A model generated the notes under the pieces. It did not search any database and had not been told where the DNA came from. It saw nothing but the letters and a program-made list of their open reading frames with translations. The position numbers were made by a program, and so were the translations under genes. A stretch of DNA of 62,012 bases, counting the filler, from Stramenopiles sp. TOSAG23-6 (lineage: Eukaryota): the NCBI GenBank assembly GCA_900128565.1. It is 13 parts of 13 records of this genome, joined end to end, with 100 filler letters (N's around TTAATTAATTAA, not from the genome) between each part and the next. Parts side by side here need not be neighbours in the genome. Positions count along the whole stretch, not along the records: positions 1 to 4,682 come from LT637083.1; positions 4,783 to 9,464 come from LT637084.1; positions 9,565 to 14,246 come from LT637085.1; positions 14,347 to 19,028 come from LT637086.1; positions 19,129 to 23,810 come from LT637087.1; positions 23,911 to 28,592 come from LT637088.1; positions 28,693 to 33,374 come from LT637089.1; positions 33,475 to 38,155 come from LT637090.1; 5 more parts are not named here. The stretch is one strand, 5' to 3'. Positions 1 to 62,012 of the stretch are shown one piece after another (position 1 is the stretch's first letter; each line of letters starts with the position of its first letter).

Positions 1-66
1 TCATACGAAATTTCGTACCTAACATTTTTTTTTAGATTTTTGTTGAAATATTTTTCCACAATACTT
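1..66 (+). other. 3' part of a family intron (contig starts inside it)
   Basis: catacgaaatttcgtacctaac...gaaatatttttccacaatactt; family register ends in TT, and an alternative canonical AG lies at 79-80. Confidence 0.7.
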
Positions 67-791
67 TAACGTTATTTCAGATTTTGGTATCAAATGGCGA
101 AGTTGATAAATATCAAGCAAATCAAATGCTTTCTCATTATTGCACTAATCTCGGTGATTCCATTTCTTTCATGAAAAAATATTGTACTTCAATAAGGGAT
201 ATACCAAATTCTGAAACATTTTCAATATTTATTGGCTTTGCATCAATATATGGTCATATTAAAAATACTAAAAATACTAAAAATACTAAAACTGATAATA
301 ATAATTTGTGTGTGGGTAATAATAGCATTGAAGAAATATACAAAATCGCATCGAAATATTCACAAAGTAATAGTTTAAAAAATACACTTAAAATTGTAAA
401 TAAAGAAGAATCTATTCGGATGTCTGTATCAAAATTAAGACAATTTTGTAAATGGGGCATTGAAGGAGAAGAAGCAGCACAAAAACTGTATGATAGCCTA
501 GTTGAATTCAATATGGTGACAAGTCGCCACCATGAATTGATGATGTTTCATGATGCATTGAAGCGAGGTCCAGATGGTTTGAAGATCTTATTAAACACTC
601 TCAATCGAAACAATGAAAATGAGCATAGTACGAAGCCTAGAATCTCTTCAAAGCATAAAATAGATGATGATAAAATAGAAATCTCTTCAAAGCATAAAAT
701 AGATGATAAAAAAATAGAAATCTCTCCAGGAGATGATGTAAGAAAAATTGACCAAATACCAAATTGGATCTTGGAATGGAATAAAAAATAA
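67..791 (+). CDS. Last exon of a hypothetical protein, weakly PPR-like; 5'-truncated
   Basis: Open frame from the intron end to TAA; PNSETFSIFI resembles the PPR P-N/D-x-x-T-Y/F motif; KNT x3 and EISSKHKIDD x2 micro-repeats. Confidence 0.6.
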
Positions 792-850
792 ACAGTAAAT
801 TTTAAATTTGACAAAATGGTTTTAATTTCTACTCATAAACACCTTTAAAA

Positions 851-1915
851 CTAGTCTTCTTGTAGATTTACCCATCTCAATACTCGCATTAACTCTTGAA
901 TACGATCGACATTGTCAACCATTTGTTGACATACACGTATTATGAAAAAATATTTCAAAAAAAAATTCGTTAGGTACAAAATTTCGTATGAAAACAAAAT
1001 TAAATTAGAAATTCATATAAAACATACACTATCAAGAACTGTGGCTTTATGCCATGGACAAGGTGGATTTTGACCTCTTAACCATTGTAATATTTCTAAA
1101 TGACCATGCATAGCTGCCATACTACACAGAGCGCCATTCCATGGGCATGGAGGATTTTGGCTTCTTAACCATTGTAACATAAGAAGATTGCCTTTCATCA
1201 CAGATACAAAGCAGGTATTTCGATCCCATGGACAAGGTGGATTTTGATTTCTTAACCATTGTAATACTTCTAAATTACCACTACGAGCTGCATTGGTACA
1301 CACTCTTTCACTCCAGGGGCACGGTGGATTTTGAGTTCTTAACCATCGTAACATTTCTAAGTTACCACTCAGAGCGGCATAATTACATGCATCTTCATCC
1401 CATGGGCAAGGCGGATTTTGACTTCTTAACCATCGTAATGTTTCAAATTTGTTATCCAATGCTGCTATACGACATGCATCTGCATTCCATGGACAAGGTG
1501 GATCTTGGCTTCTTAACCACAGTAATATTTCAAAGTTACCACTCCCAATTGCTTCGGTACACACACTCTCATCCCACGGACATGGCGGTGTTTGACTTCT
1601 TACCCATTTTAATACTTCTAACTGACCCTTTTCAGCTGCATACGTACATGATTCACCCCACGGGCAAGGTGGTTTCCGACTTCTTAACCATTTTAAAAAG
1701 TCCAAGTCACCTTCCTCAGATGCTTTACAACACGTCACTCTACCCCAATCAGCACCCACCAACCAAGGCCGTTGCGAATCATTTGAAACAACTCTACCTG
1801 AGAGTCTGTCTTTTAGACATAAATAGCTGGTAATTATAACTGCTGGACCTAGCCCACTTAGTACCAGTTGTAGAACCTCTTCTTCGTGCTTTGTTCGCTT
1901 TCGTTGTAAAGACAT
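851..1915 (-). CDS. Ankyrin-like repeat protein (about 28-aa GNLExLxWLRxQxPPCPW repeats); join(1915..1028, 934..851)
   Basis: Nine PPCPW repeats; removing intron 935-1027 adds VCQQMVDNVDRIQELMRVLRWVNLQED*, which contains another VLRWV unit. Confidence 0.85.
935..1027 (-). other. Family intron, 93 nt; GT..GT, or GT..AT if slid 4 nt within an 8-nt direct repeat
   Basis: agt|GTATGTTTT...catacgaaattttgtacctaac...ttcataatacgt|gtatgtcaa. Confidence 0.8.
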
Positions 1916-2167
1916 TATAATTGCAGACTTATGAAGTCACTTGTTACAAGAAAGGAGGAGAAACAACTGTGTCCAATCAATTCTCTTTTTAGCAGAATAG
2001 CAGAATTGCAAAAATCAAATCTGACTGACAAAACCCTAACCCTTATATATAAATCCCAATCTAAATCAATCGTACGTATTATTTGATTATTTTTTTTTAT
2101 TATTATTCAGAAACATGAATGTATGGCTAATCTGGGCATAAAATGAAAAAGATGCTTTGAATCATGA

Positions 2168-4102: not shown

Positions 4103-4628
4103 AGACTTTAGTCAGAATTTTTGAAGAATGAAATATGAATGAAATATGAATAAACTTTATGCCACATCCCGAACCGTAATGAACTTCATACCACAACTTA
4201 TTTCATTTAAATATTTTTAAAAATATGTAGCGCGTTTTTTACGTTTTTTTGTATCAATAAAATTCAGTAGACATTTATTTATCATAAAATATTTAGAAAA
4301 AAAACACAAGCACCTAATCATGATTTCTAATAAAATATTCAAATATCAAACACAAGCATTTAATCATGCATTTATTGCTTGTATAGGTTATATGTAACAC
4401 ATCACGTGGGTGACCAAGCACCTAATCTAGTATCAAACACAAGCCGTAGTTCATTCATATATCGTTTGTAGTTTTTTGCTTCTATATGTTTTAATATCTC
4501 ACAAATGATCAAAACAAAAAAGGGACAAATGTAATGTAAAGACATATTCTAAGAAATATATTCGTTTGTTATAGAATTTGGTATGAAAAAGTAATTAGGG
4601 TTTCAAAAGTACATTTAAAAATTAAAAA

Positions 4629-25123: not shown

Positions 25124-25155
<32 letters not shown>

Positions 25156-25179: not shown

Positions 25180-25185
25180 CGCGTT

Positions 25186-26728: not shown

Positions 26729-27675
26729 CTACTTTTTTTTTGCTGCACTACAACGAGAAAGAAGTTTGTCCCTGTTAGATATACCACCTGATACCATTGC
26801 CATCTTATAAAATTCACTATTTTTATCATTGAGTAGTTCGAAAGGTACACCAATTTCCAAAACACATCCATGTATTTTGGTACAATATTTCAAAATTTGA
26901 AATTTTTTTTAAAAAAAATTTCCTATGAAAAAAATACAAGTAAAAAATTCATGATGCAAACATACATACCCCATGACAATGATTCGATCGCAGTCAACAA
27001 CTGTTGATAATCTATGAGCAATTGTAAAAACTGTTCTTCTTTTAAATTCTTTACGAATAACATCTTGAATCAGTGAATCTGTTTCAATATCAATATTAGA
27101 TGTCGGTTCATCAAAAATGTAAAAGTGAAAAATATTTTTTTTTTTTTGGATAAAAAAAATTCATTAGGTACGAAACTTCGTATGAAAAAAAAAATGTAGG
27201 TAAAACATTGGAATGAAAACGTACATAACAATTTTTGAATCTGAGAGAAGAACACGAGCAAGTGAAAGTTGTTGTTTTTGACCCGCAGATAAATTACAAA
27301 TTGTATTGATATTTAATATATTTGTTTCATTATGTATATCACAATTTCGAGAGATTAATTTTGTCAAACCAACTTTGTCAATAACGTTCAATAATTCGGA
27401 ATCAGAAAATTCATCGAAAGGATCTAAATTACACCGTAATGATCCTTCCATAACCAACGGTGTCTGTGGCACAGCTGCAATGCTTTTCCTGAGCACCATA
27501 ATTCCGAGGGTGGTAATATCAACACCATCGATGTGAATCACACCGGAAGTAACATTGACAATACGAAATAAAACTGACATTAATGAACTTTTCCCAGCCC
27601 CAGTTCGTCCCACAATACCAATTTTCTCACCACCTGACACATCAAAGGAAACATTTCGGATGGCTAGTGGTAGTA
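26729..27675 (-). CDS. ABCC/MRP-type ABC transporter, C-terminal NBD; join(27675..27225, 27116..26966, 26869..26729); 5'-truncated
   Basis: Walker A GRTGAGKSS, signature LSAGQKQ, Walker B IVIFDE (after splicing), H-loop IAHRLSTV. Confidence 0.9.
26870..26965 (-). other. GT-AT intron, 96 nt (degenerate core)
   Basis: ggg tat|GTATGTTTG...ccaaaatacAT|gga; restores DRIIVMGYGCVLE. Confidence 0.8.
27117..27224 (-). other. GT-AT family intron, 108 nt, inside Walker B
   Basis: gtt at|GTACGTTTT...cttttacAT|t ttt gat gaa; restores KIVIFDEPTSNID. Confidence 0.9.
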
Positions 27676-27770
27676 ATGTATTTTGAAAAAATATTTCAAA
27701 AAAAAATCTAAAAAATTTGTTAGGTACAAAATTTCGTACGAAAAAAAAATTCGAAAAAAATAAAACATAC
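27676..27770 (-). other. GT-AT family intron, 95 nt, joining two unrelated genes (probable chimeric join)
   Basis: Full consensus element; the flanking exons are out of phase and from different families. Confidence 0.8.
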
Positions 27771-28529
27771 ATTTTTGGTCTCATATAAGACGTTACTGCA
27801 GCGGTACTCGATTCTGTCTGACCTCCAACAGTAATATGCCATAAATGATTTGCACCAACACCAGCCCTTGTATAGCATTTGACTTGAACATGTCCAGGTG
27901 AAAGAACATCACACTTAAAATTGTCATATTTCATTGATGCGTAATCATCGGTACCATCTGGTAGTGTGTTTGGATCTTGTTGATAATACACTATAATTTT
28001 TGTGCCAACAGGGCCAAAATTCTTTCCATGTAAAATAACTTGCTCTGAACCTGTCACCAATAAATCATTTTTACTTTTTTCAAGATTTTTCATTGTTAAT
28101 TTTTCAATTATTGGTCGATCATAACTAGATATAAGTGCTATGGGATAGTTCTCAGATGATACATTCGATGCATTAGATGATGCCGCTGTTCCTCCAATTG
28201 TAACATTCCATTTCATATTACTTCCAATACCAACTACTGTAGTACACTGAGCGGTGATGTGTTCCTTGACGATAATACAATTTATTGCGGTATAGACTAC
28301 ATCTGCCTCATCTTTACCTCCTGGTGTCCAAATGTATTCAGCTTTAATCGAACGATCGTTATTACCCAAACATGTATTTCTAGTACAATCTGCCGCTATT
28401 GGTCCCAAGTTTTCACCCGTAAGAGTAAGAACACTATTACCTTGTGTTGGAAATGTTTTTGGTAATATCGTTTTGATGACAGGTGCAATGTATGAAATAT
28501 ACTGTTTAGGATTCGTACTACCTGACAAT
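27771..28529 (-). CDS. Internal exon of an IPT/TIG-repeat surface protein
   Basis: Repeated SYxxPxI...GxNF/LGP...C...C.T..G.G....W...GG units. Confidence 0.75.
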
Positions 28530-28592
28530 ATATATTTTGAAAAAATATTTCAAAAAAAAAATTAATTTTTGTTAGGTACAAAATTTCGTACG
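28530..28592 (-). other. 3' half of a family intron (AT acceptor), cut by contig end
   Basis: cgtacgaaattttgtacctaac...ttcaaaatatAT|a ttg tca. Confidence 0.8.
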
Positions 28593-28782: not shown

Positions 28783-29300
28783 ATACAATCACGACATTCG
28801 TTCATTGCACGAAGAAATGATGAGGATACATTTGCACCCATTGTAAAATCATGATCTCTCACACACTGCTGGAACTCACGCACTATGCATTGTGAAAAAA
28901 TATTTTTTTTTGAATTAAAAAAATTGTTAGGTACAAAACTTTCATAGTAAAAAAAATACTTTACATTAAAACATACATCCACATAAGAACAATATCTCGA
29001 GAGTATAAACCTGAATTATGCATTTTTGAAGCTTTCAATGCTGTTAACTCATCTTTTTCCAAAAGTCCACAGATGACAAGGTCCTCATATATTGTAAAAT
29101 TTGTTTTTTTGTAAAATTTGTTAGGTACAAAATTTAGTGCGAAAAAAAATTCGAACTTGAAAAAAAATAAAACATACATTTGTGGATTCTTCATACGTTG
29201 GGTCGATACCCTTGTAAGTTAAGAAATGTGCAACATTTAAATATCGGTATATCCGAAAGTGGATTTTATTTGTTGCTGCATTTTCATGGCGAAATGCCGC
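28783..29300 (-). CDS. Bestrophin-family channel, internal exons; join(29300..29178, 29086..28977, 28884..28783)
   Basis: Spliced RIYRYLNVAHFLTYKGID...EDLVICGLLEKDE...IVLMWIVREF...AMNECRDC parallels the bestrophin cytosolic region. Confidence 0.7.
28885..28976 (-). other. GT-AT family intron, 92 nt
   Basis: tgg at|GTATGTTTT...tcacaatgcAT|a gtg; restores the frame. Confidence 0.85.
29087..29177 (-). other. GT-AT family intron, 91 nt
   Basis: aca aat|GTATGTTTT...ttacaatatAT|gag gac; restores the frame. Confidence 0.85.
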
Positions 29301-29391
29301 ATATATTTTCGAAAAATATTTCAAAAAAAAATCGTTAGGTACAAAATTTACTATGAAAAAAAAATCGAATTTGAAAAAAAATAAAACATAC
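29301..29391 (-). other. GT-AT family intron, 91 nt, joining phosphatase to bestrophin (probable chimeric join)
   Basis: gta tac|GTATGTTTT...cgaaaatatAT|gcg. Confidence 0.8.
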
Positions 29392-30783: not shown

Positions 30784-33244
30784 ATGCCACGTGATAGTCG
30801 CAAACGACGCGATCGAAGTTATTCTCCTGATAGAAAGCGAAGTCGAAGTCACCGTGATGGTTCGTCACACCACAGACATCGGTCAGATAGAGACTACAGT
30901 CGGCGTCCAGAAAGAAGTCGTGCTAGGTCTCGTGAAAGAGATTACGATGATAGACGCCGACGATCAAGTCATCGCGATACAAGCTTTTCAGACTCTCGAT
31001 ATGCATCTGACCACCGGTTGTCAAAGGAGCGTGGGAAAGAGTCCTCAGCTAAAGCTAACGCTGATCGTGCTGCAGCTCAAGCAACATTAGCTAAATTGTT
31101 GTCTAAAAAAAATTCCAAAATGGATAGTTCGGCAAATTCCAGTACAACGTCAATAAAACAGATAAATCAATCAAACCCATCAGACGTCTTGAAAAAGTCA
31201 AATATATCAGTCGATAAAAATACAAAAAATACAAAAAATATAAAAAAGACCATTTCCAAAAAAAAGACTTCTTGGGTGACTGAAAACGGAAATTCTGATA
31301 TGAATAATGGTATTCCCAAAAGTAGCAGTTCTACGCCTATACATTCAGTTATCTCATTTAAAACGAATAGTAAATCGTCTATTGGGCGAATTTCGTTTGG
31401 TAAAAAACAAAAAATTGAAAAAAAAATGAATCTGAAAATGAAGTCTATTTTTAATACTTCAAAATCAACAACACCTGTTAGTACAAAAGGTTTTGGTTTT
31501 GGTAATAATAAGACTTTATTACAGAAAAAACAAGATCAAAATGCTTTACTAAAAAATACAAAAAATACAAAAGATACAAAAGATACAAAAGATAAGACCT
31601 CTTCAACAAGAACAAATGGAAGTACAAATAATAAAGATAATAAAAATAATAAAACAGATACGGATATAACGTATACGGAAGAAACAATTGATGATGATAC
31701 GTACTATGCCGAATTTCAAAAAGCAATGAAAGAAAGAAATAACAAAACACAAGAAGAAAAAACTAATTCTGATTCAAATTCTACTACTACTACTACTACA
31801 ACGACACGTAGTGATTTAGGTGTCTTGCGAGATGACGGTGATGAAATGTTATCACGATTGGAAACAATGAACAAAAAATCTGCATTGGAAATTCTTAGAG
31901 AAAAAATGAAGAAAAAAGAATTAAAAAAAGTCGACCATGCGACTGCAAACTATGAAGATTTCCGAAAAAAGTTTTATATTGAAGCTCATTCATTGACAAA
32001 ATTTACAGGTGAAGAAAATGAAAGTAGACGTAAAGTAATGGGTATAAAAATTAGAGGGAGAAAATGCCCTCCGCCAGTTGATACTTGGGAACAATGCGGA
32101 TTATCTTCAAAAATTATGTATGTTCTTGAAAAATCAGGGTATAAAGAACCATTTCCAATTCAAAGGCAAGCGATTCCTGCATTAATGTCTGGTCGAGATA
32201 TGCTTGGTGTAGCAAAAACAGGTTCTGGGAAAACATTAGCATTTTTATTGCCTATTTTTCGTCATGTTTTAGATCAAAGAAAACTATTGGAATGCGAAGG
32301 ACCTATAGCTCTGATTTTAGCACCTGCGAGAGAATTATGTGTTCAAATACATAAAGAAATTTTACGATTTTGTAAAGTTTTAAATTTAACAGCTTGTGCG
32401 GTATATGGCGGATCTAGTGTTGGTGATCAAATATCTAAACTAAAACGAGGAGTTCATATTGTTACATGTACACCAGGACGATTTATTGATATTTTAACAA
32501 TGAATGCAGGACGTTTGATATCACTACGCCGTGTTACCTTTCTAGTTTTAGATGAAGCAGATCGAATGTTTGATATGGGTTTTGAACCTCAAATTGGAAT
32601 GATATTACAGAATATTCGACCAGATCGACAAACTGCTTTATTTTCTGCGACATTTCCTGCACATGTATGTTTTATTTTTTTCAATTTTTTATCTAAATAT
32701 TTTTTTTTTTTGAAAAATGTTGTACCTAACAAATTGTACAAAAAAAAAAAAAAATTCACAAAACATGTGGAACAACTAGCAAGAAAATTGTTAAAACACA
32801 AACCTGTCGAAATTGTTGTCGGTGGACGTAGTAATGTATCAAATACTATTACTCAATTTGTTGAAATTCGTTCTGAGCGTCAAAAGTGGTTACGTCTTTT
32901 ACAATTGTTAGGTAAATGGGTTGTTGAGAATGAAGATCAATGTATCTTGATTTTTGTTGAGACTCAGAAAAAATGTGATTCATTATTCACTCGCCTCATG
33001 AGAGCAGGATATTTCGTGTTATCATTACATGGAGGCAAAGAACAAGTCGATCGTGAACAGTCTCTTTTAGACTTTAAACAAAAAACACGTAAAATATTAA
33101 TCGCCACATCTGTCGCTGGTAGAGGGTTAGATGTCAAAGATCTCAATTACGTTGTCAATTTTGATACTCCAAATCATTTGGAAGATTATGTACATAGAGT
33201 TGGACGAACAGGACGTGCTGGTAAAGTTGGAACTTCTTATACAT
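30784..33244 (+). CDS. DDX46: DEAD-box helicase DDX46/Prp5; join(30784..32664, 32767..33244); 3'-truncated
   Basis: RS-rich N-terminus, VDH...YEDFRKKFYIE, AKTGSGKT, DEAD, FSATFP, HRVGRTGRAG. Confidence 0.92.
32665..32766 (+). other. GT-AT family intron, 102 nt, in-frame, containing no AG
   Basis: gca cat|GTATGTTTT...gtacctaac...ttcacaaaacAT|gtg gaa; restores FSATFPAHVEQLARK. Confidence 0.9.
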
Positions 33245-33374
33245 GTACGTTTTATATGAATTTCTAATTTAATTGTTTTTTTTTTGGTAAAAAATTTTGT
33301 ACCTAACAAATTTTTTTAGATTTTTTTTGAAATATTTTTTTTTTCATACGAAATTTTGTACCTAACAAATTTTT
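33245..33374 (+). other. Family intron with duplicated core, cut by contig end
   Basis: aca t|GTACGTTTT; two GTACCTAAC motifs. Confidence 0.8.
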
Positions 33375-38255: not shown

Positions 38256-38398
38256 AAAAATTTGTTAGGTACAAAATTTCGTATGAAAAAAAAAATATTT
38301 CAAAAAAAATATTTCAAAAAAAAAAATTCAAAAAAATTTGTTAGGTACAAAATTTACTATAAAAAAAAATTCATACAAAAAAAATAAATAAAACATAC
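38256..38398 (-). other. Family intron with duplicated core, cut by contig start
   Basis: gac ata t|GTATGTTTT; two GTACCTAAC motifs. Confidence 0.8.
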
Positions 38399-39833: not shown

Positions 39834-40391
39834 CGATCAGTCGCTTTACCTTTATAAATAACTCCCTCACTATATATAAAAAGACAACAATACAACCCAG
39901 TTTCTTTCTTTTTAAGATGTGAAACTCAAAAAGTGTAAATGGAAGGGATTTTATTTGCGTTCTCCACTTTTGTTTCAATTATTGTGGCAACAAAAACAAG
40001 TGACAACAGAACAGAAACAAGTGACACGTGTGAAGAAAAGGATTTCACGATGTTTCGCGCGAAATTCTTGTCAATATTTGCTATTTTTTGTTTTGTTAAG
40101 TACAAAGTTTTGTACCAAAAAAAAACCAAAAGCCCAGTCATTTTCAAAAAAGCCAGCTGTTCTTTCTACGCGCACTGACTATATTCTTAGGTAACAAATT
40201 TATGTACAAATCAACGATGAGCAGCCCTCGGAAGGAACTTCATCAACTGGATGGAACTGTATTACATATAACCCTCAGCTCACAATATTCATAGCAATAA
40301 AACTTGCTGAAATTCTGTGCTAATTATCTTCGATTGCATTGTCATCGTCAAAACACTTGATCAGTTCACTGCATTCACAGTATCACTACAA

Positions 40392-42809: not shown

Positions 42810-42934
42810 ATAAATTGTGAAAAAATATTTCAAAATTTTTTTTTTCCGTAAAAAACAAAATTTTGTTAGGTACAAAATTTACTATGAAAAAAAAAAAAAA
42901 AAAAAAAAAAAACAAAAAAAAAAAAAAAAAAAAC
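42810..42934 (-). other. 3' part of a family intron (AT acceptor)
   Basis: gtacctaac...ttcacaatttAT|gg tta. Confidence 0.75.
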
Positions 42935-43053
42935 NNNNNNNNNNNNNNNNNNNNNNNNNNNNNNNNNNNNNNNNNNNNTTAATTAATTAANNNNNNNNNN
43001 NNNNNNNNNNNNNNNNNNNNNNNNNNNNNNNNNNATATTTCTTCACAAACTAT

Positions 43054-43804
43054 AAAAATAATAATGGGTCTTATTTATTATCAAGACTACCGAGTGATAT
43101 ACGTTATCATCACATAATTTTTTTTTCTTTACTATGAAAATTCTGTACCATTTTTTTTTTACTATGGAAATTCCGTACCATTTTTTTTCCAAGATATCAA
43201 TTTTTTTCAATGGTTTCAATTTAAAATTTTTTTTCAATTTTTTTTCAATTTTTTTTTCTATGAAAATTTTATAGACTACCTATAACTAACAAATTTCAAA
43301 TTTCAAATATTTCTTCACAAAACACGAATTATCTTCAATTGGTAACTATATTTTGTGGCATTGTTTTTGATGCTTTCGGTATATATATATTAACATCTCG
43401 TAGTGATGAAGATCGAAATGCTGAATATTATGATGATTATGAAGACGAAGAAGAAGAGGAACTTTTATATGGTCTTGATTTTCAAAAAAAAAAAAAAAAA
43501 ATGAATTCTAAAGAACCTCCAAGTATATTTTATTTTTTTCAATTTTTTGTCTAATTTTTTTTTTCGTACGTAATTTTGTACCTAACAAATTTTACAAAAA
43601 AAAAAAAAAAAATTTCACAAAACATGTACCACCAAGGTAAGTAGAGGTCGCCGTCGATGGAGATTATATAAAAACACAAGAAAAGGAGTTAAGAATTTCT
43701 CTACATTCATCCATTGGGATAATGAAGCGTATAAAGAAAGTTCATTTAAAGGCTTAGACGGTAGGAGATGGTCAATGTCAATATTTGGTGTAGGTCATGC
43801 CTAA
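43054..43804 (+). CDS. NIPA-like Mg2+ transporter C-terminus; join(43054..43098, 43326..43522, 43626..43804); 5'-truncated
   Basis: Spliced KIIMGLIYYQDYRVMNYLQLVTIFCGIVFDAFGIYILTS resembles the last NIPA helices. Confidence 0.6.
43099..43325 (+). other. Intron, 227 nt, apparent AT-AC variant of the family
   Basis: gtg at|ATACGTTATC...actaac...cttcacaaaacAC|g aat. Confidence 0.6.
43523..43625 (+). other. GT-AT family intron, 103 nt
   Basis: cca a|GTATATTTT...gtacctaac...ttcacaaaacAT|gt acc. Confidence 0.8.
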
Positions 43805-43914
43805 AATAGAGTAGGGTTGAGGTTGAGGTTATGATGTAGGTCACGCCTACATTTGAGTTGTATCATTGTTTAGGTTTTCTTTTATAAATATAATATAATA
43901 CAATCAAAATATGA

Positions 43915-49467: not shown

Positions 49468-50732
49468 TCAAGAATAATCTCTCTCTGGAATCTCCCATGT
49501 ATTGTGAACAAAAAAACACGAAATCATGAAAAAAAACATTAGGTATGAAATTTTGGTACAAAAAAATAAAATTTGAAATTGAAAACGTACATGCAATCTC
49601 CCCTGTATCTGAATGTTTATAAATGTATTCATCACTGATTTCATCTTTTTGTTTGATCCATTTTTCTCTTTCCAGTTGCATAAGAAATTTTCTACTGTAC
49701 TTAAAAAAATATTTCAAAAAAAATCATTAGGTACAAAATTTCGTATGAAAAAAACAACTAAATTTGAAATTGAAAAAAAAATAAAACAAACACTTCTGCA
49801 GTTTTTTGACGATGTTTTTCAACTTGATTTGTTCTTTTATATAAACGTATGAGTGGTGAAAAATATTTTTTTTTAGTAAAAAGAAAGTTGTTAGGTATGG
49901 AATTTAAAAAAAAAAAATTCATTAGGTACGAAATTTTGTATGAAAAAAAAATTAAATTCCAAATTCAATATTGAATACGTACAAACGGACATTTTTCATA
50001 TATTGTGTATATCCTTTCCATTGATTAAAAATTCTCATGACACTTTGATTAGCCATGTAATTTTGGAAATAAATATATATTTTTTTTAGGGTTTGTTAGT
50101 TCTTTAAATTTCATGATACACAAAAAAAAAATTTTAAAAAATATATTTTTCTTAGGTACAAAATTTCGTACTAAAAAAAGAAAATTAAAAAAACTACAAA
50201 AAAATTTAAAAAAAGTTTAAAAAAAAATTAAAAAAAAATGTTTAGGTACAAAATTTCGTACCAAAAAAAAAACGTACATACGCCATATAGTTTGTCGTAA
50301 TATTTTATACTCTCTATCAATTCGTTGTTTTTCTTTTGTTACAAATTTTTGTACATATTTATGTTGTTCAGCTAAAATTAAAGTTTTAATTAAATGTTTA
50401 TATTTTTTGGATGCTTTTTCTATTGTAATTAAATTAGTGTTAGGTTGATATGTTGTTGTTGTAGGTGTATTCTTATTTTTATCTACAGAATTAAAGTACG
50501 AAGAAGATTCGCTAGGGTTAGGGTTCTCGAGAAGAATTTTATCCCATACAATATTTGATTGTTGTTGTTCAAATTCATTCATTTTTAATTCTACTTCATA
50601 TTTTGGATGTTTTCGATTCTCATTTTCTTGATTTTGTTTTTTTTGTAACAAATCTAATATTGTATCAAATTTATTCTGTTGTTTGATGGTTAATTCTGAA
50701 ATACCTTTTTTTATATTTCGTGTTTTAATTTT
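49468..50732 (-). CDS. Protein with C-terminal WW domain; join(50732..50278, 50054..49983, 49848..49792, 49694..49591, 49496..49468); 5'-truncated
   Basis: Four family introns removed in one register give a continuous frame ending WIKQKDEISDEYIYKHSDTGEIAWEIPERDYS*. Confidence 0.82.
49497..49590 (-). other. GT-AT family intron, 94 nt, splitting the second Trp codon of the WW domain
   Basis: gca t|GTACGTTTT...ttcacaatacAT|gg gag; no AG inside. Confidence 0.9.
49695..49791 (-). other. GT-AG member of the same family, 97 nt
   Basis: gaa gt|GTTTGTTTT...tttaagtacAG|t aga. Confidence 0.85.
49849..49982 (-). other. GT-AT family intron, 134 nt
   Basis: cgt tt|GTACGTATT...ttcaccactcAT|a cgt. Confidence 0.8.
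50055..50277 (-). other. GT-AT family intron, 223 nt, two cores
   Basis: cgt at|GTACGTTTT...ccaaaattacAT|g gct. Confidence 0.8.
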
Positions 50733-50754: not shown

Positions 50755-52477
50755 TGTGAATGTATTTACTTGACAGATTTGTGCCTCTCCAATAATAGGT
50801 TAAAAGTATATTATCTTTATATATCATTTTCTTTGATACTTTAATGAATCAAGTACACAATATCTAGTATAAAATATTTCATTTTTTTAAACTCTTTTTA
50901 TTATTTTTATATACATTTTACATAGTACATATACTCCCTGAAAATCTTGCAGAAAAATGTACATTTTCACTCAATTTCCTATTAATTTATGTTTTTTCCT
51001 AGACAATATTGTACCTAATAAAAAAAAATTAAAATATTTTTCAAAAATAAATGTACAAATTTAACAAGTTTGGATATAACAAAAAATTATTTGACAACAT
51101 TACCAAAAAATTGTGGAAATTGGAAAAAACTACCCAATTTAAACTTGACTCATAACAAATTTATAACTGTACCTGAATCATTTGGTGAATTGAAATTAAC
51201 AAAATTGAAAATGTCAGTAAATAAGTGTTTGTTTTATTTTTTTTCAATTTCAAATTATTTTTTCATACGAAATTTTGTACCTAACGATTTTTTTTTGAAA
51301 TATTTTTTCATAGTAATCTAATTGAATGGCCACTGCCAATTAATAAAATAAGTGACACTTTGATTGTTTTACAAATGAATTGTAATTCTTTAACTGAAAT
51401 ACCAAATTCAATTACAACACTAACACAATTAAGGCGATTATGTACGTTTTTATCATTTTTTTTTTTATTATTTTTTTTTCATACGAAATTTTGTACCTAA
51501 ACAATTTTTTTTTTAATTATTTTTTTAATGATTTTTTTAATTATTTTTAGTATTATTTTTAGTATCATTTTGAATTTATTTTTGTACCTAATGTATACAA
51601 ATTTGATATTGTTTTTATAACACATGGCTGTGTAACAATAAAATCAAAGTATTTCAAGAAAAATTATGTGAAATGACAAAATTGGACCAATTATGGCTCG
51701 ATTGGAATTGTATAGAAGAATGTACTTTTTCATCATTTATTTTAATTTATTTTTTTTCGTACGAAATTTCGTACCTAACAAAAACAAATTTACTATTTTT
51801 TCACAATATATTACCTATGGAATTTAGATTCATGACATCACTACAAGTACTCAAAATGGAAGGTAATCCAATGATGATGCCACATACAGAAGTTGTAGCA
51901 AAAGTATTTCATCACTAATATCAAATTTATTTTTTGTTTCATGGAATTTTTTTTTAAATTTTACCCAACACAAAAAATTAATTTTGAAATTTCAATGTTT
52001 TTTATTTTTTTTAGTAAAAAATTTTCGTACCTAACAAATTTCAAATAAATTTTATACTTTTATATTTCTCAGGGTGCTCAAAAAGTTCGAAATTTTCTTC
52101 AAACAAAATTTGATCGAATAATTGCTGATGAAGTTTTGAATGTAATTAAAGCATTTATTCGAACTTTACATGTATATTTTCATGATGAATTAAAAAAAAA
52201 AAATTCATACAAAATTCCGTACCTAATGATTTTTTTTTATGATTTCGTGTTTTTTTTTTACATAACATGTCATAAGAAGAAATCAACATACACCAAGTAC
52301 ATCTGGAGGATATACAGGAGCAGGAGATACTTCATCACCAGATCCTTTATTTGAAGATAATGAAAATTATATATCAGTTGATAATAATGATTCAAAAGAA
52401 GAAGAAAAAAAAGTAAACCCTAACCCTACAAAAAAAAAAGTAAACCCTAACCCTACCAAAAAAAAAAAAAAAAAAAA
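50755..52477 (+). CDS. Leucine-rich repeat protein; exons 50755-50805, 50931-50958, 51053-51226, 51319-51441, 51626-51721, 51812-51903, 52073-52171, 52269-52477; truncated at both ends
   Basis: Spliced product keeps LxxLxLxxNxLxxLP periodicity and the cap GNPMMMPHTEVVAKGAQKVRNFL. Confidence 0.85.
50806..50930 (+). other. GT-AT intron, 125 nt (no palindromic core)
   Basis: tta aaa|GTATATTAT...catagtacAT|ata ctc cct; the AG 5 nt upstream would frameshift. Confidence 0.8.
50959..51052 (+). other. GT-AT family intron, 94 nt, 9-nt direct repeat AAATGTACA at both ends
   Basis: aaa t|GTACATTTT...aaataaAT|gt aca. Confidence 0.85.
51227..51318 (+). other. Family intron, ambiguous ends (GT..TC in family register, or GT-AG 51225-51313 adding one residue)
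   Basis: Full core present; both readings are in frame. Confidence 0.7.
51442..51625 (+). other. GT-AT family intron, 184 nt, two cores
   Basis: tta t|GTACGTTTT...tataacacAT|gg ctg; restores LRRLWLCNN. Confidence 0.85.
51722..51811 (+). other. GT-AT family intron, 90 nt, perfect 16-bp palindrome, no AG
   Basis: gaa t|GTACTTTTT...GTACGAAATTTCGTACctaac...tcacaatatAT|ta cct; restores NCIEELP. Confidence 0.9.
51904..52072 (+). other. GT-AG intron carrying the family core, 169 nt
   Basis: gca aaa|GTATTTC...ttcgtacctaac...tttctcAG|ggt gct. Confidence 0.85.
52172..52268 (+). other. GT-AT family intron, 97 nt
   Basis: tta cat|GTATATTTT...tacataacAT|gtc ata; ACATGT at both ends. Confidence 0.8.
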
Positions 52478-56370: not shown

Positions 56371-56480
56371 TCATATTTTGATTGTATTATATTATATTTA
56401 TAAAAGAAAACCTAAACAATGATACAACTCAAATGTAGGCGTGACCTACATCATAACCTCAACCTCAACCCTACTCTATT

Positions 56481-57226: not shown

Positions 57227-57345
57227 ATAGTTTGTGAAGAAATATNNNNNNNNNNNNNNNNNNNNNNNNNNNNNNNNNNNNNNNNNNNNTTAATTAATTA
57301 ANNNNNNNNNNNNNNNNNNNNNNNNNNNNNNNNNNNNNNNNNNNN

Positions 57346-58838: not shown

Positions 58839-59176
58839 AAAAATATCGTACAAAAAATGAAAGACTTATTTTTTATTACACTCTCTATTGAAATTATAAT
58901 TATTTTCGTAGTAATTTACTAGTGGTTATATTTCAAATAAAATAGATTTTTTTTTGGAAGATTTTTTTGGAAGGTTTTTTTTTCTCTTTTATGGAACAAA
59001 CCTGATTTGTTGGAATTTCTTAGACCTTACCCAATCACTGTTTACTCTTTTTAACCAAGAAAGATTTAAGATTTTTGGAGTATCGACAGATTCATAATTG
59101 GAATACTATAAAAGTTTGGAATAAAATCATTATATTAGATCATCTTTATTGGTCGAAAATTGTTTGTTCAGGAGGT

Positions 59177-60016
59177 TTATAACTGATTTGGATGAACACC
59201 AATTGCAAATGCTGCGACGCTTGCTAGACTGTATGCAATAGCCGCAACAATACCACCAAATAATGTAATTTCTAATCCTGACCATAATGCGTTGGTACTA
59301 CTGAATTGTGCTTTAAATACACCAAGTAGGAATAATGCAAATGCTGTAACCGACGAAGCAATTAAAAACAACTCATGGGGTGTTAAACTAGGAAACGCAA
59401 AGGGAAAGATGCAGTACGTTATAAGAGGCAAAAATCCGAAAAAAACAAAGGAACAGAATGTAACAATTCCATCTACAAGGGGACTATCATCATCAGTGGG
59501 AATTTTCATACCAAGTTCCTCTACCATCATGATATCCACGAAAAATTCACTATGATCCGCCATTAAGTTTACGATTAGCTCAGCGTCAGCAGTTGACATT
59601 CCACGTGTCTCATAAATATGTACCATTTCCATTATTTCACCTTCACGAAAGTTTGTCAGTTCCCACTTTTCTCTTTCACGTTCCTTTAGGATATGTTCCT
59701 GTTCAGCCATGCTACTCAATGTGTCACCCAGACCCATACTCAGAGCATCGGCAAACTTGTTTGAGAACCCTAAAATGAGAATTACAAAGGTACCCATACC
59801 AGAGCCAGTAGCAGCACTCACAATCGCAAAAGTTGTTAAGATACCATCAAGACCACCATATACGATACTCTTCAAATGTTTTCCCAGAAACCTTTGGCTT
59901 TGTTTTGGGGGCACATACAAATGGGATAAACCATCAGAACGATAACTTTGGTAAGACGGAAAAGAAGAACCCGAGTTTTTAAGAGAGTCATTGTTATTTG
60001 GTGTAATAGAAGACAT
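59177..60016 (-). CDS. VIT1: VIT1/CCC1-family vacuolar iron/manganese transporter
   Basis: VYGGLDGILTTFAIVS, ADALSMGLGD, ERERE, MMVEELG. Confidence 0.92.
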   Translation of the reverse strand: MSSITPNNNDSLKNSGSSFPSYQSYRSDGLSHLYVPPKQSQRFLGKHLKSIVYGGLDGILTTFAIVSAATGSGMGTFVILILGFSNKFADALSMGLGDTLSSMAEQEHILKEREREKWELTNFREGEIMEMVHIYETRGMSTADAELIVNLMADHSEFFVDIMMVEELGMKIPTDDDSPLVDGIVTFCSFVFFGFLPLITYCIFPFAFPSLTPHELFLIASSVTAFALFLLGVFKAQFSSTNALWSGLEITLFGGIVAAIAYSLASVAAFAIGVHPNQL

Positions 60017-60438
60017 AGCGAAAAAGAACACTTAATTGATCACTTGGTAAATTTGCTTGATTGAAAGTCAATGCCTTTGCCTAGCTCTTTTTTTTTCTCT
60101 TTGGAATACAATAAGACTTAATTCCTAAGTTGTCAGGCCAGTGACCGTCGAACAAAAAAAAAAAGACAAAAATGATGTTTGTTTCATAACCCTAACCCTA
60201 GATACCACAAGAATACAGATATTTCGTGTTGCCCGAATTCCCGCGTGTGTTCAAAGTCGAGAAGTCAAGCTTGATCAAGACATTGTTGTTTGCATAAATT
60301 TGCGCCTTCAGAGACTTTGTTTTGCTCTGCTGAATTATAAGAAGAAATCGCTTTAGATTGCTTGAGGTGGAGGCACCGGGGACTAACTACAGTGGGAAAC
60401 ACCCTCTTTCATTTTATCCTCCTGCTGCGGGCTAGGTA

Positions 60439-61953
60439 ATGGATCGCTTATTAGATTTAAGCTCGGCAGTGTCAGAGGAATATGTTAGGCTTCTGGATGA
60501 AACACTTAGAGTTTTCTATCAGCCGACCAGCGCAAGCAGAGGAAAAGCACAAGAGATACTGGTACAACTTCAAAAGAATCCACAGGCATGGACGCGTGTA
60601 GCATATATTTTAACTAATTCTCAGCAATCATCGACAAAGTTTTATGCTTTACAAGTATTGAACGACACAATAAAAACACGTTGGAAGGTTCTTCCACCAA
60701 ATGAGCGACAAGGTGTGAAGGACTATCTAGTGAAGAAAATTATTGACTTGACAAAGGATGAAGAATCTTTACAGAAAGAACGCCAATTTACCCGCAAGAT
60801 GAACGAAACATTAATTGCCGTTTTAAAGAATGAATGGCCGCATAACTGGCCAACTTTTATCGAAGAATTAGTAAACTCTTCAAAAGCTTCGGAGTCACTA
60901 TGCGAGAATAATATACATATTCTTAAATTATTGAGTGAAGAGATTTTTGATTTCTCTCAGGACCAACTTACATCTAAAAAGACAAAACGGCTAAAGGACC
61001 AACTTTGTGAAGAGTTTTCGAAAATTTACCAGTTGTGTGAAGTCGTGCTACAGAGATCCCAGAGAGCCTCTTTGCTTACGGTTACTTTACAGACTTTACT
61101 ACGTTTCTTATCGTGGGTACCTCTGGGTTATGTATTTGAGACTAAACTGATCGAAACGCTTGTAGTTAAGTTTTTCCCCGAGCAAACGTTCAGAAATGAT
61201 ACTCTTGCTTGCCTCACTGAGATTGGTTCGTTGAAAGGCCTGCCTGCAGACAGATATGACGACATGTTAAGAAATTTATTTTCTTATTTTATGAAACAAT
61301 TGGAACAGTTGCTTCCACCAGACACTGATATTGCAGCTGCATATAATCGTGGTTCAGAAGAAGATAAAAATTTAGTGCAAGGTTTAGCAATGTTTATCAC
61401 GTCTTTTTTGAATGAACACATATCATTGTTAGAGAAGGGACCTTATGCTGATCCTCTTTTAAAAGCATTGGGTTGTCTTGTACAAATATCAATGGTCGAT
61501 GATACTGAAATATTTAAAATTTGTGTCGAGTACTGGAATTCCCTTTCAAAGACTGTGTACATGGATAAAATTAAATCTGCAACAGATCCAGGTGTTATTC
61601 TGCATCTAGATGGTGGAAACCCTGATTATCGATGCAGAATGTACAAAGACTTGTTTGCTAAAGTGAGACTTGTAATAATTGTTAAAATGGCAAAACCCGA
61701 GGAAGTTCTAATAGAACAAGACGAACGTGGAGAGATTGTACGTCAAGCAACACGAGATACTGATGCCATCGCTTTGTACAAAACAATGAAAGAAACTCTA
61801 GTATATCTCACGCATCTGGATCATGAAAGTACGGAACTTATTATGCTGGATAAATTGAGCAGACAAGTTGATGGTGAAGAATGGTCTTGGAATAATTTAA
61901 ATCGATTATGTTGGGCTATTGGCTCGATTTCATTAACAATGAGCGAGCAACAT
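60439..61953 (+). CDS. XPO1: Exportin-1 (CRM1), first exon of 505 codons; missing from the ORF track
   Basis: TKFYALQVL, EWPHNWPTFI, LCENN...LLSEEIFDFS, MAKPEEVL, VDGEEWSWNNLNRLCWAIGSIS. Confidence 0.95.
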
Positions 61954-62012
61954 GTTTGTTTTATTTTTTTTCAATTTCGAATTTATTTTTCGTACGAAAT
62001 TTTGTACCTAAC
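61954..62012 (+). other. 5' part of a family intron, cut by window end
   Basis: caa cat|GTTTGTTTT...cgtacgaaattttgtacctaac. Confidence 0.85.

What the first reader, a model, noticed from the sequence alone, without database searches (positions are those of the whole stretch)
1..62012. The introns form one sequence family: an introner-like element
Seen: about 30 introns in at least 12 unrelated genes share one layout: GTWYRTTTTAT, a T-rich tract, TCRTACGAAATTTYGTACCTAAC, an A/T tract, then TGAAATATTTTTYCA-HAA-TAY-AT. Most are 90-135 nt, and longer ones often carry a duplicated core. Many contig ends (1, 28592, 28693, 33374, 38256, 42934, 43035, 62012) fall inside the element, as expected for a very high-copy repeat. 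Established: introners are transposon-derived intron families (e.g. Micromonas, Aureococcus). Inference: a mobile element seeded these introns and brought the non-canonical acceptor. Alternatively, the shared motifs are an unusually long splicing signal kept by selection.
Basis: partly seen in the sequence, partly recalled or inferred. Interest (0 to 1): 0.85.

Follow-up and report, generated by a model that had tools for sequence, protein, structure and literature searches.

The report
Intron family with non-AG ends
Almost every intron in these contigs of a marine stramenopile is a copy of one ~90-base element that ends in AT instead of the near-universal AG, so it looks like a mobile "introner" family read by an unusual rule for choosing the 3' splice site.

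Summary
The window is 13 short contigs: five are identical and one is the reverse complement of another, leaving about 37 kb of unique sequence. That sequence holds 20 complete and 7 contig-end copies of one intron layout in at least 12 unrelated genes. The layout is AT|GTAYGTTTT, T-rich spacer, (TCRTACGAAATTTY)GTACCTAAC, T-rich spacer, TGAAATATTTTTYCA..AYAT|.

Copies resemble each other beyond the splice signals and form subfamilies. Eight of 16 unique contig ends fall inside a copy. A profile of translated copies finds the element in 24 further gene models of the same organism, in unrelated protein families, and almost nowhere else among 1.8 to 5.8 billion proteins.

Protein homology fixes three junctions in the window (DDX46, ABCC twice) and one outside it (a Myb gene model). 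None of the four can end in AG. The borders read GT..AT, or equivalently AT..AC.

I read this as a lineage-specific introner family with a non-AG 3' splice site. Not shown here: RNA junctions, presence/absence polymorphism, intron positions in relatives, a transposase, and how copies insert. The tools for those tests failed or were closed. Public gene models mis-splice these introns.

The parts
935..1027 (-). Family intron in the ankyrin-repeat gene, 93 nt, GTATGT...ATACGT. An 8-nt direct repeat GTGTATGT spans both borders. The same copy recurs in identical contigs 2-5 (offsets +4782, +9564, +14346, +19128).
   Evidence: (in frame)
1..64 (+). 3' part of a copy cut by the contig start (core, then TGAAATATTTTTCCACAATAC). 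Repeated in contigs 2-5.
26870..26965 (-). ABCC intron, 96 nt, TAT|GTATGT...AATACAT|GG. The branch-site core is deleted. There is no usable AG.
   Evidence: (32-residue gap against P0170 and P0192)
27117..27224 (-). ABCC intron just before Walker B, 108 nt, AT|GTACGT...TTTTACAT|T.
   Evidence: chain 9u57_A residue 1396 then 1400; 36-residue gap in 5 of 5 homologues
27676..27770 (-). Full copy, 95 nt, between a TIG-domain exon and the ABCC NBD2 exon. The family acceptor is 1 nt out of frame, so this is probably a mis-join made by the assembler through the repeat.
28527..28592 (-). 3' part of a copy cut by the end of contig 6.
28693..28782 (-). Copy cut in its 3' motif by the start of contig 7 (contains single Ns).
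28885..28976 (-). Intron in the gene downstream of the metallophosphatase exon, 92 nt, ends GCAT|. The AG 2 nt further on is out of frame.
29087..29177 (-). Intron, 91 nt, ends ATATAT|GAG. An in-frame AG 3 nt downstream cannot be excluded.
29301..29391 (-). Intron after VVGHHPVY of the metallophosphatase gene, 91 nt, AC|GTATGT...ATATAT|. There is no direct repeat, so the borders are unambiguous if the frame is right.
32665..32766 (+). DDX46/PRP5 intron, 102 nt, ACAT|GTATGT...AAAACAT|GT. Only GT..AT or AT..AC can restore FSATFPA-H-VEQLARK.
33245..33374 (+). 5' part of the second DDX46 intron, with two cores, cut by the contig end. Its last 64 nt are identical (reverse complement) to the start of contig 9.
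   Evidence: (I1)
38256..38398 (-). 5' part of an intron after the Fe-ADH-like ORF, with two cores, cut by the contig start.
42577..42693 (-). Intron in an acidic-protein gene, 117 nt, GAT|GTATGT...ATATAT|G.
42810..42934 (-). 3' part of a copy (long T run, core TCATAGTAAATTTTGTACCTAAC, ...CACAATTTAT|) cut by the contig end.
43035..43053 (+). Remnant of a 3' motif (ATATTTCTTCACAAACTAT) at the start of contig 10. Duplicated in contig 12.
43099..43325 (+). Tentative long degenerate copy with three core-like repeats. It would read AT|ATACGT...CAAAACAC|G, an A..C variant of the borders. It is in frame but has no other support.
43523..43625 (+). Intron, 103 nt, AA|GTATAT...AAAACAT|GT. It is the closest relative of the DDX46 copy. 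Duplicated in contig 12 (56660-56762, - strand).
49497..49590 (-). Intron, 94 nt, CAT|GTACGT...CAATACAT|GG, before a short last exon.
49695..49791 (-). Family copy that probably ends in a canonical AG (GTACAG| or, 3 nt on, AGTAG|).
49845..49982 (-). Intron, 138 nt, two cores, ends CATACGT|. The 3' border is uncertain.
50055..50277 (-). Intron, 223 nt. Its two cores have mutated branch sites, and a plain ACTAAC lies about 43 nt before ...AAATTACAT|.
50959..51052 (+). LRR-gene intron, 94 nt, AAAT|GTACAT...ATAAAT|GTACA, with a 9-nt direct repeat. The junction codon TGT fits ...AEK-C-TNLTSL.
51227..51313 (+). Well-conserved copy whose borders I could not settle. GTTTGT with the family 3' end is out of frame. 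GT(GTTTGT)..CATAG| is in frame but adds a residue to the LRR unit.
51442..51625 (+). LRR-gene intron, 184 nt, two cores, TAT|GTACGT...AACACAT|GG. The junction gives LRRL-W-LCNNKIKVF, which keeps the LRR period.
51722..51811 (+). LRR-gene intron, 90 nt, AAT|GTACTT...CAATATAT|TA. The junction gives NCIEE-L-P, which keeps the LRR period.
51904..52072 (+). Canonical GT..AG intron, 169 nt, that still uses TTTTCGTACCTAAC 38 nt before the AG.
52172..52268 (+). Intron, 97 nt, ACAT|GTATAT...TAACAT|GT.
61954..62012 (+). 5' part of an XPO1 intron. The contig ends exactly on the last base of the core.
4516..4604 (-). Degenerate copy (AAAT|GTACTTTT...CATACCAAATTCTATAAC...TTACATTACAT|) in unannotated A+T-rich sequence at the end of contig 1.
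   Evidence: (E 0.0014)
40092..40131 (.). Lone core-like palindrome (GTTAAGTACAAAGTTTTGTACC) between two divergent genes. It is the only copy-like piece outside a gene body.
   Evidence: (D5)

Best explanation
These are spliceosomal introns that descend from one short non-coding element of about 90 nt. The element multiplied into many unrelated genes of one marine stramenopile lineage, which makes it an introner-like family.

Each copy brings its own yeast-like 5' site (GTAYGT followed by a T run). It also brings an extended branch site (TTGTACCTAAC, in young copies the 3' arm of a 16-nt palindrome GTACGAAATTTCGTAC) and a 3' block (TGAAATATTTTTYCA..A-Y-A-T).

Splicing removes GT...AT and leaves one AT in the mRNA. 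The 3' site is therefore not AG. It lies 29-47 nt after the last CTAAY. The exon AU plus the intron GUAU can pair with the terminal AUACAU or AUAUAU.

Shown here: the family likeness, the copy spread, and non-AG junctions that restore conserved proteins.

Inferred:
- Cleavage before G1 rather than 2 nt upstream.
- Splicing by the major spliceosome.
- Spread by DNA-level insertion at AT with a short duplication. I put this at roughly 55:45 against reverse splicing of the excised RNA.
For: Family likeness and spread:
- Core motif: 31 hits against 0 in shuffles.
- Likeness beyond the signals: 79 of 190 pairs exceed the null's 99th percentile and 31 exceed its maximum.
- Best partners lie in different genes and contigs, for example DDX46 with the contig-10 gene, and ankyrin with the LRR gene.
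- Subfamilies share non-signal strings (ATATGAATTTCTAATTTAATT in 1027 and 33245; TCATAGTAAA in three copies).
- Eight of 16 unique contig ends fall in copies, P about 1e-5. A 64-nt stretch is shared exactly by the ends of two contigs.
- Profile of 14 translated copies: 31 hits at E<=10. Of these, 25 are CDS of one EukProt set, one being the window's own gene, in unrelated Pfam families. 30 of 31 show the core peptide in context.
- Exhaustive scan of 1.84 billion representatives: 7 hits at E<=0.001, six of them the same proteins and one an unrelated repeat.
- Core pattern in 185,579 prokaryote genomes: 1 chance hit. In viral contigs: 0.

Junctions:
- DDX46: a 35-residue insert against human DDX46 residue 566, and a clean 34-column gap against six orthologues.
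- ABCC: gaps of exactly 36 and 32 residues, equal to 108 and 96 nt.
- Myb model P0130: removing 30 residues restores PSIVKGT-WT.
- 16 of 20 family-placed borders are in frame, where 1/3 is expected.
- For 5 introns no AG within +60 nt keeps an open frame.

G1 as the first intron base: G1, T2 and T6 are 24/24, while exon AT is only 17/24.

DNA-level insertion: the direct repeats across the borders are locus-specific. The mean is 3.16 for own pairs against 2.56 for cross pairs, and 11 of 5000 permutations reach the observed value (19 introns, the suspect 27770 dropped).
Against: - No RNA evidence.
- GT..AT and AT..AC give the same mRNA wherever the exon ends in AT. The two copies without that repeat (29391, 43523) rest on open frames only.
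- The direct repeats vary from 0 to 9 nt, which is unlike a fixed target-site duplication.
- The inverted ends are only 4-6 nt, and no transposase lies in the window.
- All copies in genes are in sense orientation, and only one core fragment is intergenic. That fits RNA-level spread as well, though about 84% of the window is genic by my rough tally.
- Predicted folds are weak: z scores -2.4, -2.0, -0.9, +0.4, -2.2, -0.3.
- 3 of 20 copies probably end in AG, 2 end in GT, one (51227) is unresolved, and one junction (27770) looks mis-assembled.
- Many 3' ends were placed by motif.
Confidence: 0.7

Rival explanations
1. There is no mobile element. The shared blocks are simply very long splice signals of this organism (5' site, branch site with hairpin, 3' block) that selection keeps alike in all introns of independent origin.
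For: Degenerate copies keep only GTAYGTTTT, TTGTACCTAAC and A-Y-A-T. A canonical GT-AG intron (51904-52072) also uses TCGTACCTAAC. The branch site to 3' end distance is narrow, 29-47 nt.
Against: With those signals held fixed, the spacers are still far more alike than shuffled ones. Subfamily-specific strings lie outside any signal. Thirty-residue translated copies are near-identical in more than 20 unrelated genes. Copies with a broken 5' arm of the palindrome carry no compensating change, so that part is not a conserved RNA helix. Contigs break in the element.
Confidence: 0.08
2. The family spreads at the RNA level. The excised intron reverse-splices into other transcripts at ..AU|G.. sites and is copied back into the genome, as proposed for fungal introner-like elements. 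There is then no transposase and no true target-site duplication.
For: All 27 copies, plus the degenerate ones in genes, are in sense orientation inside transcribed sequence. There are no long terminal inverted repeats and no transposase in the window. The border repeat varies in length. Exon -2/-1 AT and exon +1 G (13/20) look like a preferred 'proto-splice site'. Gozashti et al. (passages read) describe fungal introners without TSD or TIR and with gene bias.
Against: The locus-specific direct repeats of up to 8-9 nt are not expected from clean reverse splicing. A core-like piece lies between genes. The window is about 84% genic by my rough tally, so 0 full intergenic copies out of 27 is only mildly surprising. 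Antisense copies in genes would be purged whatever the mechanism.
Confidence: 0.3
3. The copies are spliced by a transformed minor (U12-type) spliceosome, whose introns tolerate non-AG ends. This would parallel the mass gain of U12-type introns in Physarum.
For: GTATGTTTT matches RTATCCTTT at 7 of 9 positions, and TACCTAAC matches TCCTTAAC at 6 of 8 (my comparison; consensus as quoted in the Physarum preprint, passages read). In Physarum, GT-AT is 17% of non-canonical U12-type borders. There too the introns carry inverted ends and a 2-nt direct repeat.
Against: The diagnostic C5 C6 of the U12 5' site is absent: position 6 is T in 24 of 24 copies and position 5 is G, A or T, never C. GTATGT/GTACGT is the exact U2-type consensus known from yeasts (recalled). 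The branch site lies 29-47 nt from the 3' end, beyond the usual U12 range. No snRNA was found in the window, so nothing can be said about U11, U12 or U6atac.
Confidence: 0.12
4. The 'introns' are artefacts: chimeric inserts from whole-genome amplification or assembly, or DNA segments removed at the DNA level as in ciliates, rather than spliced RNA.
For: The assembly is fragmented, has duplicated contigs, and has at least one probable mis-join in a copy. The short A+T-rich inserts bounded by a 2-nt direct repeat, of which one copy is kept, recall ciliate eliminated sequences (recalled).
Against: Copies sit at precise positions that restore conserved proteins. They carry 5' site and branch-site motifs and always follow the gene's strand. 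The same translated copies occur in proteins called on contigs from other sources: 4 ena, 1 merc, 1 jgi.
Confidence: 0.03

Closest known systems
Introners of algae and other aquatic protists (Micromonas, Aureococcus, Symbiodinium, Chrysochromulina, Florenciella; Gozashti et al. 2022, PMC9860276, passages read)
   Same: Many introns in unrelated genes share one sequence. The element carries or recruits its splice sites so that splicing restores the mRNA. Short direct repeats span the borders. The host is a marine protist.
   Different: Those families are described there with GY..AG borders and TSDs of 3-9 bp. Here the usual 3' end is AT, the border repeat is 2-3 nt (0-9), and the inverted ends are only 4-6 nt. 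At about 90 nt the element is also shorter than, for example, the ~210-bp Aureococcus type (length from PMC9481584).
Non-canonical introner elements of Amoebophrya (Farhat et al. 2021, PMC7789003, passages read)
   Same: Non-GT-AG introns that are repeated elements. Direct repeats of 3-5 nt overlap the exon/intron borders, so the exact cut is ambiguous. Inverted repeats can pair the two intron ends.
   Different: Amoebophrya shows no common terminal dinucleotides, has 8-20-nt inverted repeats and has many families. Here one family has an invariant canonical GTAYGT 5' site, a strong CTAAC branch site and one preferred 3' end (A-Y-A-T).
Transposon-like U12-type introns of Physarum polycephalum (Larue et al., preprint 10.1101/2020.10.12.336362, passages read)
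   Same: Mass gain of introns with extended motifs, short inverted ends and a 2-nt direct repeat. GT-AT borders occur. The authors propose that signals and machinery co-evolved.
   Different: The Physarum introns have the U12 5' site RTATCYTT and a branch site 10-12 nt from the 3' end, and GT-AT is a minority there. Here the 5' site is U2-like, the branch site is 29-47 nt away, and AT is the majority end.
Introner-like elements of ascomycete fungi (as summarised in PMC9860276)
   Same: No clear TSD or TIR, strong bias to genes and to sense orientation, conserved ends.
   Different: The fungal elements use GT..AG. Here there is a non-AG end and a significant locus-specific border repeat.
Yeast-type constrained introns (GTATGT ... 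TACTAAC ... YAG; recalled, no call)
   Same: Near-invariant GTATGT/GTACGT and a CTAAC branch site.
   Different: Yeast introns are not one sequence family, and they end in AG.

Membership tests
Introner / introner-like element | Introns of unrelated genes share sequence over most of their length, beyond splice signals and composition | tested here: met
   (79 and 31 of 190 pairs above the null's 99th percentile and maximum)
Introner / introner-like element | High copy number across the genome | tested here: inconclusive
   No genome is held. There are 27 copies in 37 kb, 24 further gene models, and contigs break in copies. No genome-wide count could be made.
Introner / introner-like element | Recent gain: positions absent in orthologues of relatives, or presence/absence polymorphism | not testable with these tools
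No DNA of relatives could be fetched.
Introner / introner-like element | Removal restores the uninterrupted coding sequence | tested here: met
   DDX46, ABCC twice, Myb model P0130; 16 of 20 in frame
DNA-transposon-type introner / MITE | Terminal inverted repeats and a target-site duplication of fixed length | tested here: inconclusive
   The ends are GTAT..ATAC, or 6 nt when the flanking AT is included. The border repeat is locus-specific (11 of 5000 permutations) but ranges from 0 to 9 nt. AT is also simply the consensus (17/24).
DNA-transposon-type introner / MITE | Autonomous partner that encodes a transposase | tested here: not met
   Pfam on 20 ORFs of the window found no transposase domain. 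This covers the window only.
Canonical U2-type GT-AG intron | 5' GT(A/G)... site and a CTRAY branch site | tested here: met
   G1 T2 24/24, GTAYGT consensus, CTAAY 29-47 nt from the end
Canonical U2-type GT-AG intron | 3' terminal AG | tested here: not met
   No AG is possible at four homology-fixed junctions. For 5 introns no AG within +60 nt keeps the frame. 3 of 20 copies probably do end in AG.
U12-type (minor) intron | 5' site RTATCCTT | tested here: not met
   Position 5 is G in 19 of 24 and position 6 is T in 24 of 24
U12-type (minor) intron | Branch site TCCTTRAY close to the 3' end, and presence of U11/U12/U4atac/U6atac | tested here: inconclusive
   TACCTAAC matches 6 of 8 positions but lies 29-47 nt away. 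No snRNA was found in the window, and no genome is available to search.
Ciliate-type internally eliminated sequence | Removed from DNA, with no dependence on gene strand | tested here: not met
   Every copy in a gene follows the coding strand. Removal from DNA itself is not testable here.
Group II intron or other known structured RNA | Match to a curated RNA family | tested here: not met
   0 Rfam matches at gathering score in the whole window

The most novel reading that the evidence does not exclude
In this stramenopile lineage one ~90-nt element has supplied nearly the whole intron complement. The spliceosome now routinely cuts at a non-AG 3' site (A-Y-A-U). That site is set by distance from an extended branch site and by pairing of the last six intron bases with the 5' exon end plus GUAU. 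G1 and U(-1) would stand in for the usual G1-G(-1) contact; a possible A1..C(-1) copy at 43099-43325 hints at this. That would be a genome-wide change of the 3' splice-site rule, driven by a mobile element.
Probability: 0.4. Interest if true: 0.88.

Novelty: new variant of a known kind. Interest (0 to 1): 0.77.

Why it matters
- Terminal AG is among the most constant features of spliceosomal introns. A free-living lineage in which most introns end in AU while keeping a textbook 5' site and branch site would give a natural system for asking how the 3' site is chosen in the second step. It would also let one ask whether a mobile element can drag the splicing code with it.
- It would add a heterotrophic marine stramenopile to the hosts of introners. 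I found no paper linking the two, but that rests on four searches and on passages only. Supplementary species tables could not be opened.
- There is a practical consequence now. The public gene models of this organism force GT-AG. They read into these introns or skip real exons. P0150 loses the Walker B motif, P0010 loses conserved helicase blocks, and many models start at the ATG created by AT|GTATGT. Proteomes and completeness scores for this lineage are therefore distorted.

Tried and rejected
RNA and DNA reads:
No read-level evidence exists here.
- RNA runs X7, X8, X10 and X11 hold only 0.05-0.10 of the sampled words of contig 6 and were never laid. I draw nothing from them.

Collection scans:
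- The metagenome-contig scan for the core failed six times and then the cap was reported spent.
- Genome contigs gave one hit in a Bacteroidales MAG with no other family feature, so a chance match.
- Viral contigs gave 0 hits.

Spliced same-species proteins:
- The DDX46 search and the ABCC exon search found only the public, mis-spliced gene models.

Other negative or unclear results:
- The third ABCC exon has no significant match among solved structures. The tblastn settled that junction instead.
- P0146 against solved structures gave no clean gap.
- Folding of six copies gave weak or no excess stability, so I dropped the idea of a strongly structured intron. The central palindrome is not kept by compensating changes.

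Ideas rejected:
- A fixed 'AT' or 'GT' target-site duplication. Two of the three GT cases fell when frames were checked, and match counts alone do not exceed what the consensus gives.
- AT..AC as the main reading, because exon AT is less constant than G1 T2.

Full report
**What the window is.** The 62,012 bases are 13 contigs of 4,667-4,682 bases joined by N44-TTAATTAATTAA-N44 spacers. Contigs 1-5 are identical. Contig 12 is the reverse complement of contig 10 except for 24 differing alignment columns, all within about 290 bases of one end. Unique sequence is 37,416 bases. No whole genome is held.

DDX46 exons are most like stramenopile proteins, at 57-60% identity. They are 98% identical to a CDS of a EukProt set whose label points to the MAST-3 group of marine stramenopiles. 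DNA runs labelled seawater metagenome hold 50% and 28% of the sampled words of contig 6.

**The observation.** The 23-letter core has 31 matches at up to 3 mismatches, against none in 100 shuffles. Twenty-two of these are in unique sequence. I placed 20 complete introns (87-223 nt; 16 of them 87-117 nt) and 7 copies cut by contig ends. nhmmer with a model of 16 copies adds a degenerate copy at about 4516-4604, a long three-core one at about 43099-43325, and a lone core-like palindrome between two genes at 40092-40131.

Hosts are at least 12 unrelated genes. Every copy in a gene follows the coding strand. Three of the four longest introns and two of the partial copies carry two cores. In those, the upstream branch site is mutated (CCTAAA, CCTAAG) and a CTAAY lies 29-47 nt before the 3' end, as it does in all other copies that have one. 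Eight of 16 unique contig ends lie in a copy although copies cover 7.9% of the sequence (P about 1e-5). The end of contig 7 and the start of contig 9 share 64 identical bases of the element.

**More than signals and A+T richness.** I kept the first 9 nt, the TACCTAAN block and the last 4 nt in place and shuffled the spacers (20 rounds, 3,800 null pairs). Of the 190 real pairs, 79 exceed the 99th percentile and 31 exceed the maximum of that null. Best partners are usually in other genes and contigs.

Subfamilies share strings that are no splice signal. ATATGAATTTCTAATTTAATT occurs in the ankyrin and second DDX46 introns. TTCAATTTCRAATT occurs in about eight copies. The derived TCATAGTAAA form of the core occurs in three. 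A group with GTACRTTTTCA at the 5' end is more diverged.

In degenerate copies only GTAYGTTTT, TTGTACCTAAC and the A-Y-A-T end persist. So those parts are signals under selection and the rest is family heritage.

**Spread outside the window.** In the frame that reads the core as FVPN, most copies are free of stops. A profile of 14 such translations was searched against 5.8 billion proteins, longer proteins only. It gave 31 hits at E<=10: 25 CDS of the same EukProt set (one is the window's own gene), 4 from ENA assemblies, 1 JGI and 1 MERC. Thirty of the 31 show the core peptide in context, typically MYVLFFFKFEFFFVRNFVPNDFFLKYFSKIH, and some carry two copies.

The host models carry unrelated Pfam families, including carnitine acyltransferase, Myb, PI3/4-kinase, UCH, MFS, protein kinases, asparaginase and TPR. 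An exhaustive HMMER scan of 1.84 billion cluster representatives found 7 proteins at E<=0.001. Six are the same proteins and the seventh is an unrelated repeat. The short profile limits reach, so these are lower bounds. The core pattern occurs once, by chance, in 185,579 prokaryote genomes and never in viral contigs.

**Where the borders are.**
- *DDX46.* Human DDX46 aligns up to ...FSATFPR(565) and resumes at residue 567. The window has 35 extra residues there. Six orthologues show a clean 34-column gap. The junction lies in a 6-nt repeat (ACATGT), so only GT..AT or AT..AC can give FSATFPA-H-VEQLARK. The nearest AGs give stops.
- *ABCC.* tblastn with five homologues gives a 36-residue gap before Walker B in 5 of 5. 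It gives a 32-residue gap after ...DRIIVMG in the two that reach that far. These equal 108 and 96 nt. A solved ABCC2 chain leaves exactly three residues between the two exons.
- *Outside the window.* Removing 30 residues from Myb model P0130 restores PSIVKGT-WT against c-Myb.
- *LRR gene.* The family borders keep the repeat period at three introns: AEK-C-TNLTSL, LRRL-W-LCNNKIKVF and NCIEE-L-P (my reading).
- *All introns.* 16 of 20 family-placed borders join the longest flanking frames, where one third is expected. The four misses are:
  - 26965: the homology frame is the second longest.
  - 27770: see the next section.
  - 49590: it has a short last exon.
  - 51227: unresolved.
- *AG alternatives.* For five introns no AG within 60 nt downstream keeps an open frame. 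For several others an in-frame AG further on cannot be excluded.
- *Exceptions.* Three copies probably end in AG (49791, 51227 with a donor 2 nt upstream, and 51904). Two end in ACGT.

**GT..AT or AT..AC?** Wherever the exon ends in AT (17 of 24), both give the same mRNA. I favour GT..AT for three reasons. G1, T2 and T6 are invariant (24/24) and in register with the U2-type consensus GTAYGT. The exon AT is less constant. Two copies without it (29391 AC, 43523 AA) still have in-frame A-Y-A-T ends. This is an inference.

**Other anatomy.**
- Exon AT plus GTAT is the reverse complement of the terminal ATACAT. With ATATAT the G1 partner is U. In the ankyrin copy both sides read GT (G-U, U-G). In minimum-energy folds the terminal helix forms in 3 of 6 copies, and overall stability is weak.
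- Direct repeats across the borders are longer within a locus than between loci. The mean is 3.16 against 2.56 nt, and 11 of 5000 permutations reach the observed value (19 introns; 27770 left out). They range from 0 to 9 nt. Exon +1 is G in 13 of 20.
- The 16-nt palindrome GTACGAAATTTCGTAC is perfect only in a few copies. Changes in its 5' arm are not compensated.
- No transposase domain was found in 20 ORFs, and no Rfam family matches.

**A probable mis-join.** The copy at 27676-27770 links a TIG-domain exon ending ...SYMRPK, the usual TIG domain border, to the ABCC NBD2 exon. The family acceptor is 1 nt out of frame. I read this as the assembler crossing from one gene to another through the repeat.

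**Mechanism.**
- *Shown.* These are a sequence family in many genes, and their precise removal, not at AG, restores conserved proteins.
- *Inferred.*
  - They are removed from RNA by the spliceosome. The evidence is the strand rule, the 5' site and the branch site.
  - The cut is before G1.
  - The 3' site is set by distance from the branch site, perhaps helped by the terminal helix.
  - The family spread by insertion.
- *DNA or RNA spread.* For DNA-level insertion speak the locus-specific repeats, the short inverted ends and the intergenic core fragment. For RNA-level spread speak the strict sense, genic placement and the lack of long inverted repeats. I put the odds at about 55:45.

**What is known.**
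- Gozashti et al. 2022 (passages) describe introners in many aquatic protists with TSDs of 3-9 bp and varied recruitment of splice sites. Neither 'stramenopile' nor 'MAST' occurs in its main text or in that of the 2025 follow-up.
- Papers on MAST single-cell genomes and on the MAST-3 species Incisomonas do not discuss introns beyond methods (passages only).
- No listed paper holds 'introner' together with MAST-3 terms (top 15 of 68 seen).
- The nearest analogues are the Amoebophrya non-canonical introners and the Physarum U12-type introns with inverted ends, a TA repeat and some GT-AT borders.
- Supplementary tables were closed, so a listing of this lineage there cannot be excluded.

**Verdict.** The non-AG end is the most unusual part. 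Mobility, copy number and the splicing mechanism remain to be shown.

Noticed in passing
window 1-23810; 43035-47707 versus 52578-57245: Five contigs are byte-identical. Contig 12 is the reverse complement of contig 10 except for 24 differing alignment columns at 43090-43318, which include a 6-nt indel TACCTA inside a degenerate core. Counts taken over the whole window are inflated by these duplicates.
   Followed up: yes
window 41889, 42081, 42510(-), 50513(-), 52416, 52443, 60188: The telomere-like 13-mer AACCCTAACCCTA occurs 7 times, against 0 in shuffles. Six lie in coding sequence and always on the gene's strand, read as NPNP. One lies upstream of XPO1 on its strand. It may be a sense-strand motif of unknown role.
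   Followed up: partly
window 33475-38155 (contig 8): One open frame of 1,560 codons runs off both ends. It is made of Cys-rich ephrin-receptor-like repeats. The first and last 55 nt of the contig are identical, so the contig may be a collapsed or circularised tandem repeat. It holds no intron.
   Followed up: partly
window 27676-27770: Probable assembler mis-join through the repeat: a TIG-domain exon is joined to an ABCC NBD2 exon, out of frame by 1 nt.
   Followed up: partly
proteins P0010, P0150, P0121-P0151: Public gene models of this organism read into the introns or skip real exons. P0150 lacks DEPTSNIDIETD, which includes Walker B. Many models start at the ATG formed by AT|GTATGT (MYVLFFF...).
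   Followed up: yes
window 43099-43325 (+): A long three-core copy would begin ATACGT and end ...AAAACAC, with A at +1 and C at -1 where the family has G and T. It is in frame with the flanking ORFs, but this is a single case in a region where contigs 10 and 12 differ.
   Followed up: partly
window 25053-25985 (contig 6): About three tandem units of roughly 306 nt inside a minus-strand ORF (repeated ...KFTLPTCHAGQQLTVPSPSGQMITFCVP...). An Ala/Lys/Glu-rich repeat protein lies at 23913-24701. Neither matches Pfam.
   Followed up: no
window 40092-40131: A core-like palindrome (GTTAAGTACAAAGTTTTGTACC) lies alone between the divergent Fe-ADH-like and AP2 genes. It could be a chance match, a relic, or a sign of DNA-level insertion outside genes.
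   Followed up: partly
L001 6187-6206 (Bacteroidales MAG contig): Exact 20-nt match to the core in a bacterial contig with none of the other family features. Taken as chance.
   Followed up: yes
protein P0001 (nearest non-identical DDX46, 60% identity): Its C-terminus runs into GTLYF..., which would be GGTACGTT... at the DNA level. A related organism may thus also use GTACGT 5' sites. Its DNA could not be fetched.
   Followed up: no
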